Shown here one piece after another: positions 20,281-40,029 of a DNA stretch of 64,000 nucleotides. A model generated the notes under the pieces. It did not search any database, was not told where the DNA came from, and was given only the letters and a program-made list of their open reading frames with translations. Position numbers and translations under genes: made by a program. This DNA comes from Raja brachyura (Eukaryota). How positions within the stretch are numbered: position 1 is the stretch's first letter; every line of letters starts with the position of its first letter. The stretch is from positions 14,508,001 to 14,572,000 of the forward strand of contig OY740814.1 in NCBI GenBank assembly GCA_963514005.1, read 5' to 3'.

Positions 20281-20320
20281 ATGGGGACGCGGGACGACGA
20301 GTATGATTACCTGTTCAAAG
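20281..20320 (+). CDS. RAB11A: Ras-related protein Rab-11A, coding exon 1
   Basis: ATG...MGTRDDEYDYLFK followed by the donor AAG|GTGAGT; 40 nt. Confidence 0.97.
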
Positions 20321-30594: not shown

Positions 30595-30810
<216 letters not shown>

Positions 30811-31473: not shown

Positions 31474-31695
<222 letters not shown>

Positions 31696-32508
31696 TGATC
31701 CTGGCCCATTTTTGGGCCGTTTCTGTTTAATAATGGATTTCACAAATTAATGCGTAGAGAAGGGTGGTTTCCTCCAACTCTTTGCAGGATTCGGCTGAAC
31801 ATGGGTTTCTTGTGAGGGACTTTGCTCTGTGGCTGATCAACATTTGCCCTGGGGACCGGACACGTCTCCTGCAGATTATATGTTCAGTATTTTAAGGCTT
31901 CAAAAACAAATCTTGATTTCCACCCAGTTTCCCCGGGGATGGACCCGCCACATTTAGAGCAATCTGTCAGCTGGCTGGTTCTCTGGTGCAACTTCACTTG
32001 GGCCAAATCATTCTCTGTGATCCTGGGTAGCCAAGAGTTTTGCACCCATTCCCAAAGCTGTGCTTTGCACACAGGAATGTGTCCAGGGCAGGAGGTACTG
32101 AGTGGATGGGAATTAACCAAATTTGCAAGAATTCAGCCTTCTAAATTCTGTTGTTTTTATATGAATTTATTCAAACTAGATTAAATTTACTAAAAGATCC
32201 AAACAAGTAACAATTTGGGGAGCAGGTGAGCCTGGCGGATCAGTGGAGATTACGTGCTGTGCAAGGTTGCAGTGGAAGGTGGTCCATTTGAGTGAAGGTT
32301 GGGAAATTGGCTGGGGGTTGGTTGCCTGTCACCGTGAGGGTGGGAGGAGGGACGTTCTGCCACCATGGAATTTGTGCGGTGATTTGGACATCCTCTATTG
32401 GTCACTGAAGAGGGACAACTGATCTGCCCTTTGTCCAGACCTACCAAACAAGCTGAAAATAAAATAAGGATTTGTTTTGTGATGAAATTGTTGTGGCTTT
32501 CATTCCAG

Positions 32509-32589
32509 AGAAAAATGGACTGTCATTTATTGAAACGTCAGCTTTGGACTCGACAAATGTAGAGACTGCATTCCAGACTATCCTCACAG
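32509..32589 (+). CDS. RAB11A: Rab-11A coding exon 4 (ETSAL)
   Basis: Acceptor TTCCAG|; encodes [27 protein letters not shown]; donor CAG|GTATGT; 81 nt. Not captured by the ORF track. Confidence 0.97.
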
Positions 32590-32596
32590 GTATGTT

Positions 32597-32722
32597 CTTC
32601 TGTGTAGCGCGTACAGCCTAAAGTTGTGGGTTGACTTGTTCTATTTGATTTATTTGTGCACGTCAGGTTGATTGCATTAGTTGAAATAGAGTGGACCTCG
32701 TGAAGGTTGTAATCTCCCACCC
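32597..32722. mobile_element. 126-bp unclassified insertion whose 12-bp TSD duplicates the exon-4 donor
   Basis: Direct repeat CACAGGTATGTT at 32585-32596 and 32723-32734. Confidence 0.75.
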
Positions 32723-33565
32723 CACAGGTATGTTGATTCATTGGGACTAAAATAAAGATTGTCTTAAAATGCAAGATGCAGACCTGATAAACAATACGTG
32801 TGCTAATAGTTATATTGTGCAAAAGAAAGGCAATTGCCGTTTTTATTTGTGACACTAGCTTCCTCTCATTGTGTGGGGGACAGTGGTGGTTTCTTTGGGT
32901 AATTTGTCTTCCTGAGGGAGGCTTCTGTGGCTTGTCTCTGCACGTCCTGAGTGTGGTTACTCAAAGATGTCTGTGCATGCAGCTTGGAACAACTTCCTAT
33001 CATTTGCAGCTGTAACTTGATGAAAAACAAGATTTCCCACTGCCATCAGCCTCTGAGATGGGGAGGAAAATTTGCAAGAGATATTTTGAAATCTCACTGT
33101 TTTGTGTGCAATATTTTGGGTGGTGAATGTGAATAGTTTAGATAACCAGTGTTTGCACTACCCACCTAGTAAGAAATATCTCTCGGTAGATAAAAAGATC
33201 CGTTCCCCTGCCTTAATATAACAGCTCGTACATACTTTCACATTAGTCCACTTTGGGCAGCAGACTTCTCTGGTGGATTCATGATACTTGATTTGACTCC
33301 TATCATGCAGAAAGATCTTGATGCCTTTGGAGAGCCTCATTTTATTGTCTAGATCAGAACCCTGTACAAGTGGTGAAATAGCCACTAACCCAGGGTTTAA
33401 CTTCTCATCTAGCTAAACAAATACCAAGGCAGAGCTGTGGCAAAATTTCAGAAGTGATGAACTGGCTGTGTAATTATTTCTGTGCTGGACAAACCTTGAT
33501 GCGGTTGTCAAATGAGCTGCCATTACAGATGCAGAGTCTAGCAAGTGCAGAGTTTGTGTTTGGGA

Positions 33566-33730
33566 GAAAAAGATCCAAGCTGCTGGTGGAAGTCAGCAGG
33601 TCAGATATGATTTATGGCGGCAAAAAGATAATCGTCATTGCCTGCACAGATACGACCTGACCTGCTGAGTTCCTCTTGCTGTTCTTTTTGGGTTTTTTGC
33701 TCTGGATCTGCTGTGTTTTGTCTCCAGTTT
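33566..33730. mobile_element. Old inverted Penelope terminal-repeat insertion
   Basis: TCAGCAGGTCAG ... CTGACCTGCTGA inverted pair, in the family context. Confidence 0.6.
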
Positions 33731-34081
33731 GAGTTCTGTGTAAGTTTCCATATAATTATTGTTGTGTGATTGCAGGTGAAAGGACAGCCGAGCTGGTTTT
33801 TTACAAGCATACCTCTGTGGAAACTTTAATAGTAGTTCAGTCAGAATGAGGTGTTGTATTTTTCCAAAGGAAAAAAGGCATCTTAATATTTGGGCATTAT
33901 TGGGAATGTGGACACTGAGATTCGAAATGAGTATGGAGTATTAGTTTGGGTATGAAAAGGATGTGGAATAGTGTTATTGCTTATAAAGGGAAGTGAGAAA
34001 GGATATTGATTCCAATAGTGTAGCCCAGTGCAAATTGGAGGAACAGCACCTCCTATTTAGTTTGGGCAGCTTACACCTCAG

Positions 34082-34305
34082 CAGGGCTCGAAATTAGCGG
34101 TTGCCCGGGTGCCAATGGCAACTTACAGTCCCGCCGGGCAACCTAAAAGCCATGCCAATTTTGCCCAGCTTGGCAAGCAACCGAGACACCCGTCCAGCTC
34201 TCCGCTCTGCACTAGCTCTCAGGTCTCCTCTCGGCTTTCGGGTCATCTCTCGGCTCTCAGCACTAGGTCTCCGCTCTCGGCTTGGGTCTCCGCTCGGGTC
34301 TCGGC
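34082..34305 (+). mobile_element. Truncated hAT-like DNA transposon end
   Basis: Begins CAGGGCTCGAAATTAGCGG, has CpG-rich subterminal short repeats (CTCTCGG), and has no matching second TIR. It sits between a Penelope fragment (34020-34081) and a CR1 fragment. Confidence 0.45.
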
Positions 34306-35815
34306 AGATGATTTTCTGCACAAATATGTCAAAGAACCAACCACAGAACAGGCAATCCTGGACTGGGAATTGTGTGATCCAAACAGATTAATTAACAGTT
34401 TTGATGCTGGAGATCCTTGAAATAGTGTGACTGCTATATGGTAGAATTCTTCATTGAGATGGAGAGATGGGTGTGGTGGATTGAGATGACTGTCCTAAAT
34501 TTAAATAAAGAAAATTACACTGATATACGATACAGTAGAACTTTATTCAATCCCGGAGGGAAGTTGGTCTGCCAACAGTCATAACACACAACAAGTTACA
34601 CGAAAACTTCAAATTAAAATTAAATTAAAAGTGAAATTGGAAACAAAAAAGAAAAAGACGAGCAACTGTTGGCTGGCTGCCATGTGCATGGCACCTTAAC
34701 GAACAAATGAAGGCAGGGTTATCCACTGGGCAGAGGATTGTACAACTAGAGTGCGCCCCCCCCTCCCCACACTGGGTTCCCCTTTGTTCTCCCGGCGGCC
34801 CCCCAACTCCGGGTCCTCCATTGTTCTTCACGGCTGGCTCTGACCCGCGAGGTGAGGTTCCTCCTACCGACACGCATGGCCCCGGCCGGGCCACAGCCTG
34901 TGCATCTCTGTGGCTATTGCCGCGGACATCTCCCAGGTATGAGATGAGAGTTGGTTAGTTGAGGAACATTATTTGAAGTTCACAGTGGATCAACAATGGC
35001 AAACATTTAAAAGGCGAGTGGAAGAACTCCAAGATTGTTCATTCTGGTCTGGGACAAAAATGAAATGGGAAGAATGGCTCAACTTGGGCTCGCAACGTAA
35101 ATTAGGGATAGTATTGAATCCAATAAGATGCATTCCCTAAGAAAGCAGCAAACCTGAGGCCTGGAAACAATTGAGAACTAAGCAGAGGTACACCAGGGGA
35201 TTTAAAATAAAAGGAGAAACATTGGGCATACGAGTAATCTTAAAGAAAAAGCCTGAAGTGTAAAGTGAGGTATTGAGTACTGGAGCGTGGATGTATTGCT
35301 GCAATTGTAATGGGGGAGGGGCTTGTGAGAACACCTTGATAATGTGTGACGTTTTGAGGAAGGATATTCTGGTAGCAGGACTGCAGTGAAGGTTACTCAG
35401 ACTGCCTCCCAGGATGTCAGTGTTTGTTACTGAGGAGAGATTGGAAAGGTTGGACATTTTCACTGGAGATCAGAAAAATGAGAGGATCTCATTGAATCTT
35501 ATAAAGTTGCGATGGGAATCAACAGTGGATGTTCCTGTTCATGAGGATTTTGGAACCAGGGGTCATGGATCAAGGATGTGGACAAGTTGTTTGAGGTGGA
35601 GGAGGGAGAAATGTCTTTGTCAGGAATTCTCTGTAGATAGGGGAATTCGCTATCAGACAGTTGAGGTTAGATTGTTAAATTTAACGTGGGGTTGCTGTCA
35701 GAAAGGAGATCCAGTGCACAAATGTATATGTCCAGCCATGTTGAATGGTAGAACGTGTTTAAGGGCCAAATGGCCCAGTGCTCCCATTTCATTTTTCTAA
35801 TTTTCTATGTTTTCT
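34306..35815 (+). mobile_element. Degraded CR1 (endonuclease to 3' tail) with a nested insertion
   Basis: DDFLHKYVKEPTTEQAILD-type endonuclease motif, and a 3' tail TTTCTATGTTTT near 35805. Confidence 0.75.
34522..34940 (-). mobile_element. GC-rich non-autonomous retroelement with AATAAA + ATCGT tail, copy 2
   Basis: Shares CTTTATTCA.TCCC.GAGG, ACACGAAAA, CTGTTGGCTGGCTGC, CTGGGCA.AGGATT and CATTGTTCTTCAC with 13925-14230. Confidence 0.65.
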
Positions 35816-38690
35816 AATCTATATACAATGGGACTTCTGGAAAACTAATGGTGTGGGAATGGGCCTGTTATTAGGGCATAAGTTAGTGCAGCGATGACCC
35901 ATGAATCGCCCTGTCACAAGGAGGTTTGCACTGTTCTATTAGCTGGTCCTTGATTTTGTGAAATTCATGTGTTGTTAATTGTGTGTTAAACTTCCACTAA
36001 AATCATGTAATTAATAGCAGTCTTGCCAGCAAATGAACAATTAAATCCTTCAGATAGATAATTCAGATTTTAATACTATAAATATTTTATTTTTCCTCTG
36101 TGCAGTATTTCTTTCTGAACTTGGCTCATATCTTTTAATTTCTTTATCAATCCTACACTCACTCGTTTACTGGATACCTTTGCCTCTTCAGTTTCCTGAC
36201 ATTTCTGTTGTCCTTGCCCCATCATTCCTGGAAGTTGGAACGGAGGGTGAAAATGATGGGAAAGATCCATCAGTAAATTCCAACCCAATCATATTCTGAT
36301 GACTTGTCTTCCAAGCTGCTCTCGGTCTGAAAGGGTTTGGTTATGTTATTGGGTGGTGGGAATGCAGAGTCCCAAACCTCTCTGGAATTTTCACGAGTCT
36401 CTGCATGACAACAGAACAAACTTTGTTTGAAGCTATCTTGTAATAAACTGCAAGCGATGACTGGGTCCTGTTGTACAATAAGCAATTTACAAATCCCTTT
36501 AACCTTTTTGTGATTGTATTCTCTGACTGGCAACTGTTGATTTCCATGCACTGACATTACGGAATTCAGCTCTCCAGTTATCTGATATCTAGAACGTCCT
36601 TTGTGGAATGTAAGAGCTGTATCCAAGGTCATCATTCAGCAGCGTTGTTGACTTTGCACACAGATGAGGCCGCATTCATAAATTAAAGTGGAAATTAAAA
36701 CGCTTTTTCAAAGATTGAGCTCATCCAAAGTTGTATCCACCAATTTCTGTGGAGGGCAGGATGATCCGCTGTCTAATCTGAGTTACTGCATTAACTGGCA
36801 AAAGACCGTGTAGTCTGTAACCATGATCTCTGAGCCTGGAGATAATCGGGGAGCTTGGGGTTGATTTGCTTGTTTTGATAATGAGTTTGGTGTAGGCTTT
36901 ATTTCAATTGTCATTAGTGTTGAAATTGATGCGGCAAAGGTGGCAAGATCAAAGATGTCCTTCCAACCATATGGGAGCTGGCTGGTAATGGGGGTCCAGA
37001 TGTATGTTGCAGCATTTTGCTGGATATGAAGTCATTGAGTTAAGATCAATTGGGCTTCTTGTTACAGCCTAGAGGGCAAGACTAACAAAGCCACATTCCA
37101 GGGTCTGGAATCTACTGGTGTGGCCTGGGGATGCAACAGAGGAGGTGGCAATGCAAAGTCGAGTGTCCATGATTGTGGTAATAAAGGAAATTCAAAAAGG
37201 GATGTTCACCTTCATTATCTCCTCACAGTGAGAGTGTGAGAGAGAATGTGGATGTGAAAATTCAGAGATCTGATTAGTAAGTTTGCAGGTCTTGTTGATT
37301 GTAAGGAAATAGTTGTACGATGATACCGGATGGTATTGATCAATTACTAACATAAGCAGAACGGATTGTGTTGAACCTTTAATTGTGATACTCATTTGGA
37401 GGACTAATAAGGAGGGTACATACACTAGGGTGCTTGAGAATGTGAGGTAAAGAGGGACTTTGGTGTACAGGTTCAAGCTACAAATTGTTCTCATGTATAC
37501 CATGTTACATTGAAAATGCATTTGTGTACTATCCAGGCAAATCATACCATACACTAGTACAACAAAGTGCAGAGAAAAATAACCAGAATGCAGAATAGTG
37601 TAACAGTTACAGAAAGTGCAGGGTGGGGAGGGGTTAGTTAGTTGGACTGGGCTACATCACCATTGCTTGAGGTATTGGGCAGAGCAATTTCCAAACTAAA
37701 TTGTGATACAATATGTTGGTAAAAGATGATGCTTTTTATTGTGCATCTGTAGTGATTGGTAAGCATCATTGGAGGCATGCTACAGCAGCTCTTCAGGGCT
37801 GAATAGTTCATTTTGAATTTGCCCCACATTATGCCTATTGGCAATTAATGACAATGGCCCAATGCATTATTTTGGAGTTTGTATTGACTGTAGAGATATT
37901 GCACTACAACAGACTACCTATCTTTTTGCTCTTGGCATGACCAGCCTTGGCCTCTTGGTCGTGCTATTGAATTGTGGTTCAATGTTGCTTTGTTACCCCT
38001 GGTGAACAAAGCAAAAGCTACAGCATTGGCTAGTAAACTAGGAGACAGGAAGTGAGAAAATAAAGCAGGTTCAAAGTCCACTTCCTTTAATTGAATTGTG
38101 GAAAATTCTTAGTTTGCGTGACTTTCTTCATTTAAAGATTTGCTGTTGGATCTTATGAATTTAGTTTTTTCACTAAATGAAACACAATTAAGATTCTGGT
38201 TTCAGTTAATGTAAAAACCTGTTTTTTTGGTTAGGCTGTTTTAGCCTATCTTTTCACAACGTTATTTGAAATGATTCAAACTCTCATTCCTGGGGAACAT
38301 TCAGCTCCTGCTTACTGGCTAAAGGCAGATTAAAATGTACCTGGCAGAGACCACTTTAGATTAATTTTAACAATGTAAAGCAATGGCCATTATTTCATAG
38401 TTGATCTGTGATTACCCATGTACTGAAAACATTGTAACCTACTTGGAACAAGGTTTAGGCTTATTGCTTGTTTGTTTCCGAAATGACAAACTCAGCTTGG
38501 CATCAAACTTGGGCGACGTGAGTAAATAACGAAAAAGGGCTCGTCTTTACTCCATCTTTATTCTAGGGACACTCCTATACTGTCACCAAGATTTTTGTCA
38601 ATGCTAAATTAATACACTTGGTAAAATGATCAAAAATGATCCTTGAATTAGAGCCAGCTTGATTTTTTTTCAATTTAAGGATTGTACTAA

Positions 38691-38849
<159 letters not shown>

Positions 38850-39106
38850 ACTGACTTCCTTCACCATTCCCTGGGCCTCGGTATATTGTATGTATGTCAT
38901 GCTTGCCGTTTGTTTTTTGTAATTCAAAACTTGCTGATTAATGTGACAATTATCTTAAACATGTTGCACTGTCTTTCTAAGCAAATTACTGCATTAAATT
39001 AATTTCAGCTTTGGAACATTTTTATAATATTCACAAGTAGTGTAAAAATAAGTTTATCATGTAAAGTGATGGGTTTTCTAAGTGGTGTTAGCAAAAGGGC
39101 AAATTG

Positions 39107-39112
39107 AATAAA
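39107..39112 (+). promoter_or_regulatory. RAB11A: Candidate RAB11A polyadenylation signal
   Basis: First AATAAA after the stop; ATTAAA alternatives at 38993 and near 39266 and 39384. Confidence 0.4.
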
Positions 39113-40029
39113 ACACCCATAAGCCTTACTATCGTAGGTGCTTTACAAGATTCACGTGCTGTTTAAGAATAGGAATGTTCATGAAGTGTTAACCACACAG
39201 ACGGCGTTTCTTTTCCACTCAATCACTAATTTGTCCTTCCATTTCTTTCTGTCACGTTTCTTGGTATTAAATGTAATTGTTGTTTTGTAAATTACTCCTG
39301 TGTATTTTATGCATGTACTATGATTGTTTTCCAAATTTTCAGTTTATAACCGTTTAAAATATATTCTGTGCATTTAAATCTTAATTAAAATGAAATGTTG
39401 GGGAATTTGTTTTGTTTATTTCAAGGCAAGGTGATGCTACCATTTGTAGGACTGGGCATTAGACGGTGGTAGACAAATGACAATTCCTTGGCGCTGGGAC
39501 CAATCCTGGTCTCAGACTGAGCATGTGCTCCACAGATGCACTCGACCAATTCTGGTATTTAAATTTTAAGCACAAGTACCCAGATTGTCCCAGATCTTGG
39601 AGGGGGGTGGGAGGGGAGGATTTATGCCATTATGTATGGAACATTGTTGGTGGTATCAATACTGTCTGTCTCCAGAAGAATAATGATTAAATAGGTCTGT
39701 ATCACATAGAATCCATACATCTAAAGCTGCTTTTGCCTAATCCACACTTGTTTCTGTTCTTCAGGAGTTCCAGAAGCATTGAAGGACGGTGCTTGTGGAG
39801 CTATTGTAAAAATGTATGGCAAACCTGTATGCCAGCCAAAATTGAGTTATTTGGATTAGTTCTACTTCCCGATCTTGGTGCTCAGCCGAGGGTTGCAGCT
39901 CTTCAGGAGCTCATCGGGCACGTTTTAAATGCAGTGAACATTTTTGCCTGTGAATTCCATACCTCACATCTGGGTAAAAGGTTTGTTCCTCCACTCTAAT
40001 CCTGTCAATCTTCACTTTGTTTAAAACCC

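What the first reader, a model, noticed from the sequence alone, without database searches (positions are those of the whole stretch)
32585..32734. Insertion duplicated the RAB11A exon-4 splice donor, creating a potential poison or truncated isoform
Seen: CACAG|GTATGTT occurs at the exon end (32585-32596) and again 138 nt downstream (32723-32734), flanking a 126-bp insert, so the TSD straddles the exon-intron boundary. The two donors are identical from -5 to +7, and the distal one keeps the ancestral downstream intron context. Using it adds [10 protein letters not shown] then TAA (32619-32621), 106 nt upstream of the final exon junction. Known: stops more than 50-55 nt before the last junction trigger NMD, and Rab11 lacking the C-terminal CC cannot be prenylated. 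Inference: a transposon-born competing 5' splice site in an essential housekeeping gene. It could tune RAB11A dosage or yield a soluble, possibly dominant-negative GTPase core.
Basis: partly seen in the sequence, partly recalled or inferred. Interest (0 to 1): 0.7.

Follow-up and report, generated by a model that had tools for sequence, protein, structure and literature searches.

The report
Retroposon duplicated a RAB11A splice donor
A small jumping element landed on the exon-4 splice donor of the RAB11A gene and copied it, as the same element did in MTOR and one other gene; the spare donor is likely almost unused, so this is likely a tolerated accident, not a dosage switch.

Summary
The sequence observation holds. 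The exon-4 donor of the single RAB11A gene occurs twice, 138 nt apart, and the in-frame TAA lies 106 nt above the second donor. The insert is a 127-bp antisense copy of a short retroposon (13,418 exact hits of one 14-mer). It is built from the 5' and 3' ends of a Vingi-like LINE, has an (AAG)n tail and an 11-bp target-site duplication (TSD), and its 5' end fits an HDV-like ribozyme fold. DNA runs of related organisms carry the same insertion. The family duplicated a donor in two other genes, MTOR and an uncharacterised gene, where the downstream copy differs at 1 and 2 positions. No usable RNA data were available, so donor choice is untested. Human experiments on equal tandem donors favour the first. 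Best reading (0.65): the upstream donor dominates, any leak is degraded by NMD, and the insertion is neutral. A dosage-tuning poison isoform or a dominant-negative protein has no support here. The boldest open reading is that the second copy (YAG|GT after a pyrimidine tract) acts as a recursive splice site that removes the insert.

The parts
32509..32589 (+). RAB11A exon 4 (81 nt, phase 1/1)
32586..32596 (+). TSD copy 1 (11 bp), holds the upstream donor at 32589|32590
32597..32723 (-). 127-bp non-autonomous bipartite retroposon from a Vingi-like LINE; 16 mismatches in 127 aligned bases to a near-consensus copy
32670..32723 (-). 54-nt HDV-like ribozyme fold at the element's 5' end (predicted; one P2 mismatch in this copy; antisense to RAB11A, so absent from the pre-mRNA)
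32597..32635 (-). 3' end shared with the partner LINE, ending in a short (AAG)n tail
32619..32621 (+). first in-frame stop (TAA) if the downstream donor is used or the intron is retained
32713..32727 (+). possible acceptor made by element 5' end plus TSD: 10 of 11 pyrimidines (only 2 T) at -15..-5, then ACAG
   Evidence: sequence
32724..32734 (+). TSD copy 2 (11 bp), holds the downstream donor at 32727|32728
38710..38850 (+). RAB11A exon 5 coding part (last coding exon, ends ..QCCQNI stop)
20281..20320 (+). RAB11A exon 1 coding part
30614..30809 (+). RAB11A exon 2
31497..31690 (+). RAB11A exon 3

Best explanation
A short LINE-derived retroposon sits antisense just inside RAB11A intron 4, flanked by an 11-bp duplication that contains the splice donor; the upstream donor is likely the one used almost always, and the downstream copy is likely a near-silent pseudo-donor whose rare products would be removed by nonsense-mediated decay. 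Steps: (1, shown) the insert is a member of a high-copy family made of the first ~80 and last ~39 nt of a single-ORF endonuclease/RT LINE. (2, inferred) Target-primed reverse transcription with nicks 11 bp apart duplicated the donor. (3, inferred from human experiments) With equal donors the first one transcribed, closing an 81-nt exon, wins. (4, inferred) Leak transcripts carry a stop 106 nt above the last junction and are degraded. (5, inferred) The insertion therefore cost little and drifted to fixation in an ancestor of several related organisms; it has no selected role.
For: Family: 40 of 40 scored hits among 4205 candidates; 13,418 exact 14-mer hits against 1 for the reversed control; 23 of 29 other copies have 8-13-nt flanking repeats. 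Shared: contigs of three DNA-like runs (X4, X6, X9; organisms C, D, E) run across both junctions and one of X1 (organism A) across the right junction; no empty-site joint in 4 of 4 runs; X4 has no difference from the window and may be its source. Donors tie at 8 of 11 U1-matching positions. Mikl et al. (PMC6783452, section 7 read): with equal tandem donors the first is predominantly used. Borensztajn et al. (PMC1557585, abstract and Discussion read): identical downstream donors in F7 intron 7 stay silent. The extension is 36% T with stops in all frames, against 26% T in exon 4. Same accident in MTOR (42 of 43 residues identical to human; three consecutive open exons at one locus) and at L064; there the downstream copy differs at 1 and 2 positions, consistent with drift.
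Against: Donor choice was not observed. Mikl et al. say context can break the first-come rule, and the F7 paper notes older duplication experiments with opposite results; F7 donors are 37 nt apart, here 138. The downstream donor keeps the ancestral intron context and is still perfect. A predicted hairpin (-6.9 kcal/mol for a 40-nt piece) pairs the upstream donor with the element's tail, and the downstream donor is predicted 2.4-4.6 times more accessible, though the gene's own exon 1 and 3 donors score lower still. All splicing rules cited come from mammalian cells.
Confidence: 0.65

Rival explanations
1. The downstream donor is used appreciably (above about 5-10%) and couples RAB11A to NMD, lowering or tuning its dose.
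For: Identical donors; 219-nt exon is a normal size; stop meets the NMD rule; downstream donor unchanged in X4, X6, X9; slightly more accessible in folding.
Against: First-donor preference in published tests; identity of 11 bp expected by chance about 0.3 at ~10% divergence; in MTOR the downstream copy has a weaker +3 base; nothing points to regulation. A selected role is at most a third of this probability.
Confidence: 0.18
2. The second TSD copy works as a recursive splice site: the 138 nt are first removed as a small intron (32590-32727), which rebuilds the ancestral donor, and the rest of the intron is then spliced, giving normal mRNA.
For: CAG|GT preceded by 10 of 11 pyrimidines; 138 nt is a workable intron; MTOR copy has the same CCCCCAG|GT layout; the product would be exactly the pre-insertion sequence.
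Against: Tract has only 2 T against a T-rich real acceptor at exon 5; vertebrate recursive sites need a downstream exon-defining donor and the EJC represses rebuilt donors (PMC6224609, passages), and the best donor within 400 nt matches U1 at 6 of 11 (32899); L064 has AAG, a poor acceptor, yet is tolerated.
Confidence: 0.1
3. A stable 180-aa unprenylated Rab11a core is made and acts as a dominant negative.
For: Residues 1-170 are kept; Rab11a constructs of 165-173 aa have solved structures, so the core would likely fold; no terminal cysteine motif.
Against: Needs both downstream-donor use and escape from NMD; a harmful product in a housekeeping gene is hard to square with an insertion shared by several organisms.
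Confidence: 0.03
4. The repeat is chance or an assembly error.
For: 4 of 100 shuffles give two matches somewhere in 64 kb at 1 mismatch.
Against: The repeats abut the exact ends of a family member whose copies have such TSDs; independent runs cross both junctions.
Confidence: 0.01

Closest known systems
Human F7 intron 7 minisatellite pseudo-donors (PMC1557585)
   Same: Sequence-identical donors downstream of the real one, created by duplication across the exon-intron boundary.
   Different: Tandem 37-bp repeat with 5-9 donors, shown silent; here one TSD copy 138 nt away, use untested.
Bipartite non-autonomous LINEs: RIME (ingi), NARTc (L1Tc), Vingi-1_EE derivatives, Bov-A (PMC5786205)
   Same: Only the 5' and 3' ends of the parent LINE, no ORF, no small-RNA head.
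   Different: Very short (about 130 bp); about 13 nt between the two parts are not traced to the LINE; no name could be assigned (no repeat library in the tools).
L1TcRz / Pr77 HDV-like ribozyme of the ingi clade (PMC3185411, PMC4035085)
   Same: Nested P1, P2, 3-bp P3 at the very 5' end of LINE and short derivative; shared 5' block of 77-80 nt.
   Different: 54 nt with almost no P4; no Rfam match; cleavage untested.
Poison exons / alternative-donor AS-NMD
   Same: Alternative donor would add a premature stop above the last junction.
   Different: No shown use, regulation or excess conservation.
Vertebrate recursive splice sites (PMC6224609)
   Same: AG|GT that rebuilds a donor after a first splice.
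   Different: 138 nt from the exon in a 6.1-kb intron, transposon-made, no good downstream exon-defining donor.
De novo Alu/L1 insertions at NF1 splice sites (PMC3219598)
   Same: Retroposon insertion at or near a splice site with TSD.
   Different: Those disrupt splicing and cause disease; the passages read describe skipping and cryptic sites, not a duplicated intact donor.

Membership tests
Non-LTR retroposon insertion | Flanking target-site duplication | tested here: met
   11 bp here; 8-13 nt in 23 of 29 other copies
Non-LTR retroposon insertion | 3' simple-repeat tail and many dispersed copies | tested here: met
   (AAG)n tails; 13,418 exact 14-mer hits
Non-LTR retroposon insertion | Empty site in an outgroup | not testable with these tools
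   All 4 runs laid carry at least one junction; no empty-site joint; no relative genomes held
Bipartite non-autonomous LINE | 5' end shared with an autonomous LINE | tested here: met
   19 of 20 LINE ORF-start loci carry the element's 5' block directly upstream, 15 of 20 nearly whole
Bipartite non-autonomous LINE | 3' end shared with the same LINE | tested here: met
   20 of 20 LINE 3' loci match the last 34-39 nt; L168 holds both ends
Vingi clade (partner LINE) | Single ORF with APE endonuclease and RT | tested here: met
   Pfam PF03372, PF00078, zf-RVT in order in broken copies; many full-length homologs are ~1000-aa APE+RT proteins
Vingi clade (partner LINE) | No RNase H (separates Vingi from Ingi, PMC13708176 passage) | tested here: met
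   No RNase H family in 6 of 6 pieces nor listed for 75 of 75 homologs; pieces are degraded
Vingi clade (partner LINE) | RT phylogeny with named Vingi elements | not tested
   No named reference sequences at hand; one Anolis homolog at 41% (P0066)
HDV-like ribozyme | P1 (7 bp, G1-U), P2, 3-bp P3, 7-nt L3, C at start of J4/2, in nested order, starting at base 1 of the element | tested here: met
   Own descriptor: reference fits; 0 of 1000 shuffles strict, 1 of 1000 with one mismatch; 54 of 133 copies strict, 78 of 133 with one mismatch; the common P1 variant keeps pairing. Descriptor layout is from recall and was fitted to this family
HDV-like ribozyme | Match to an Rfam HDV-like model | tested here: not met
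   No such family at E<=5 in the window copy or 10 loci
HDV-like ribozyme | Self-cleavage before G1 | not testable with these tools
   Needs in vitro assay
Poison exon / AS-NMD event | Stop more than 50-55 nt above the last junction | tested here: met
   106 nt
Poison exon / AS-NMD event | Isoform seen in RNA and raised by NMD block | not testable with these tools
   No usable RNA run
Poison exon / AS-NMD event | Conservation above neutral | tested here: inconclusive
   Donor unchanged in runs 1-5% diverged; too shallow; chance of identity about 0.3
Recursive splice site | Pyrimidine tract + YAG followed by a donor motif | tested here: met
   10 of 11 pyrimidines, C-rich
Recursive splice site | Downstream donor defining an RS-exon | tested here: inconclusive
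   Best GTR site within 400 nt matches U1 at 6 of 11; no trained scorer available
Recursive splice site | Intermediate junction or lariat reads | not testable with these tools
   No nascent RNA data

The most novel reading that the evidence does not exclude
Antisense copies of this ribozyme-bearing retroposon are self-erasing at splice donors: the element's 5' end supplies a pyrimidine tract and the TSD supplies CAG|GT, so the insert is spliced out as a mini-intron and the ancestral donor is rebuilt (transposon-born recursive splicing) in RAB11A and MTOR, while sense insertions are purged because they put a self-cleaving RNA into the pre-mRNA.
Probability: 0.1. Interest if true: 0.75.

Novelty: new member of a known kind. 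Interest (0 to 1): 0.33.

Why it matters
If the best reading holds, this is an ordinary tolerated insertion, but RAB11A, MTOR and L064 form three natural experiments on how a vertebrate picks between two near-identical donors 138-149 nt apart, testable with one RNA-seq data set. If the downstream donor is used, it would be a young transposon-made AS-NMD switch in a housekeeping gene. If the recursive route is used, it would show how recursive sites, or new introns, can arise in one step from a TSD. Separately, the family is a likely source of over ten thousand very small HDV-like ribozyme copies in one vertebrate genome.

Tried and rejected
RNA evidence: no RNA holder listed. Three runs guessed to be RNA (X1-X3) were laid on 32400-39600: patchy intron contigs of depth 2.5-8, no cover of exon 5 or the 3' UTR, and no joint at either donor, not even the normal one; the tool drops human-like records, so this is no verdict. 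One X1 contig crosses the downstream donor unspliced (DNA or pre-mRNA, uninformative). Rfam: nothing relevant. First guess that the partner was an RTE element: dropped after the partner's ends and domains were found. Searching with the 3' 65 nt returned only short copies (30 of 30 loci); the LINE was found in 2 of 40 unselected 14-mer hits. First run of the strict ribozyme descriptor failed through a one-base offset and was redone. RNA folding of the region is not unusual (z 0.65) and accessibility does not separate real from spare donors. Targeting of donors by the family: not shown; 2 exons among 15 unselected antisense loci against about 0.6 expected (P about 0.13, using assumed donor numbers). 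Sense-orientation search: 0 recognised exons among 25 element loci of 29, but Pfam also missed the real L064 exon, so an orientation bias is not shown. Literature: no paper held all of 'recursive splicing', 'transposable element', 'target site duplication'; listings showed no report of this locus or family by title or abstract start; PMC9714508 passages had nothing on RAB11A exon 4. Three wanted papers (a 5' splice-site review, the Vingi description, Ruminski 2011) were not held. No supplements were read; Repbase-type entries could not be searched, so the family may already be named. Three look-ups in earlier scan findings returned nothing.

Full report
1. Observation. The 12-mer occurs exactly twice in the window, at 32585 and 32723, with 126 nt between. 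The first copy spans the end of an 81-nt exon of a five-exon gene that gives a 216-aa protein; the exon's best PDB matches are RAB11A, ahead of RAB11B and RAB25, and its DNA is single-copy in G000. Use of the second donor, or intron retention, adds [10 protein letters not shown] and stops at 32619-32621, 106 nt above the second donor; the product is 180 aa without terminal cysteines. The host is a vertebrate with a 2.7-Gb assembly; flanking repeats suggest a cartilaginous fish, from recall only.

2. The insert. It has 4205 first-look candidates, and the 39 best other copies are 84-91% identical. One 14-mer of its 3' end has 13,418 exact hits against 1 for the reversed control. Copies start sharply, end in (AAG)n and, in 23 of 29, are flanked by 8-13-nt repeats; 4 gave only 6-nt repeats and 2 none. 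Position 1 is G in 109 of 133 distinct 5' ends, so the element is 32597-32723 on the minus strand and the TSD 11 bp. Two of 40 unselected 14-mer hits were ends of a longer element. Of 20 loci of that element, all 20 share the last 34-39 nt with the short one, and 19 of 20 loci at its ORF start carry the short element's 5' block, up to about base 80, directly upstream. The long element has endonuclease, RT and a C-terminal zinc-binding region in order, with no RNase H hit in 6 of 6 pieces; many of its 75 homologs are ~1000-aa APE+RT proteins, one from Anolis. This fits a Vingi-like LINE (PMC13708176 passages), without a tree. The short element is thus a bipartite non-autonomous LINE like RIME or NARTc (PMC5786205, parts 1-2 and passages).

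3. Its 5' end. The first 54 nt fit an HDV-like layout: 7-bp P1 with G1-U, 7-bp P2, 3-bp P3, 7-nt L3, almost no P4, C opening J4/2. My descriptor, recalled and fitted to this family, hits 0 of 1000 shuffles strictly, 54 of 133 copies strictly and 78 with one mismatch; the commonest variants keep P1 pairing or lie in loops or CpGs, and P1 positions 1-4 vary most among the LINE-linked ends. Rfam found nothing. Such ribozymes are known at the 5' ends of ingi-clade elements and their short derivatives (PMC3185411, PMC4035085, passages). Activity is untested. In RAB11A the fold is on the other strand and absent from the pre-mRNA.

4. Age and spread. The window copy differs at 16 of 127 bases from a near-consensus copy. 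Contigs from X4, X6 and X9 run from exon 4 into the element and from the element into the intron; X1 covers the right junction. Differences from the window are 0, 7 of about 790, 14 of about 790 and 8 of 200. X4 may be the window's source. No run shows an empty site, so the insertion predates these organisms and the outgroup test remains open. The downstream donor is unchanged in X4, X6 and X9, but at about 10% divergence since insertion an 11-mer stays intact about 0.3 of the time, so this does not show selection.

5. It has happened elsewhere. Pattern searches for donor-like TSDs gave 11 and 5 antisense loci and 29 sense loci, 25 of these with the element. The patterns miss diverged copies, so these are lower bounds. 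Besides the window, two antisense loci follow real exons. L076 is an MTOR exon, 42 of 43 residues identical to human, in the only MTOR locus found; its downstream donor differs at +3. L064 is an exon of an uncharacterised conserved gene; its downstream copy differs at two positions. With 263 such motifs per Mb and an assumed 60,000 matching donors, about 0.6 exons are expected among the 15 unselected loci; 2 is not a clear excess. So donor duplication is what a large family with 11-bp TSDs produces by chance, and it is survivable in housekeeping genes.

6. Which donor is used. This could not be observed (see Tried and rejected). The donors tie at 8 of 11 U1-matching positions. In a large human reporter library the first of two equal donors was predominantly used, with exceptions set by context (PMC6783452 section 7). 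In F7, identical downstream donors stay silent though functional; the same Discussion notes older conflicting experiments (PMC1557585). The extension is T-rich with stops in every frame. Against this, the downstream donor keeps the old intron context, and folding predicts a weak hairpin over the upstream donor and 2.4-4.6 times more access to the downstream one, although the gene's exon 1 and 3 donors score lower than both. I put upstream dominance with a small NMD-degraded leak at 0.65 and appreciable downstream use at 0.18. A dominant-negative protein needs both use and NMD escape (0.03), though a core ending near residue 170 would likely fold.

7. The overlooked route. Because the duplicated site is AG|GT, the second copy is also a possible acceptor, and the element's 5' end supplies 10 of 11 pyrimidines before it. 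Splicing 32589 to 32728 would remove the insert and rebuild the original donor. MTOR has the same layout; L064 does not. The tract is C-rich, no good downstream donor defines an RS-exon, and the EJC represses rebuilt donors (PMC6224609 passages). Probability 0.10. One search found no held paper joining recursive splicing, transposons and TSDs.

8. Verdict. Real insertion, real duplicated donor, recurrent in this genome, most likely neutral. The parts are of known kinds. Interest 0.33, mainly for the three-gene natural test and the small ribozyme-like element.

Noticed in passing
L076:1390-1665 (G000:C33:20379893 region, minus strand): Same family inserted antisense at an MTOR exon donor; 11-bp TSD, downstream donor differs at +3; extension 145 nt with an early stop.
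   Followed up: partly
L064:1246-1525 (G000:C4:101405925 region): Same family at the donor of a 122-nt exon of an uncharacterised conserved gene; downstream copy differs at two positions; extension 149 nt.
   Followed up: partly
L066 (G000:C6:9797334 region): Possible fourth case: a 29-nt stretch between a T-rich acceptor and a donor-like 14-bp TSD; exon status not verified.
   Followed up: no
window 32670-32723 minus; L028, L107-L146: 54-nt HDV-like ribozyme fold with almost no P4 at the 5' end of the family and of its partner LINE; no Rfam match.
   Followed up: partly
L168:2642-5730: Near full-length Vingi-like LINE copy with a short family copy inserted into its own endonuclease region, with TSD.
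   Followed up: partly
window 32516-32569: At 85% likeness a second sequence covers part of exon 4 in all four runs (depth about 10 in X4, 220-240 in X1): probably a paralogue such as RAB11B.
   Followed up: no
window 33846-34327 and 34569-34809: Further high-copy repeats in RAB11A intron 4 (very high depth in DNA run X9).
   Followed up: no
L113, L123, L126, L130, L133, L134, L136: Several family copies are split by later insertions of other repeats, useful for ordering repeat waves.
   Followed up: no
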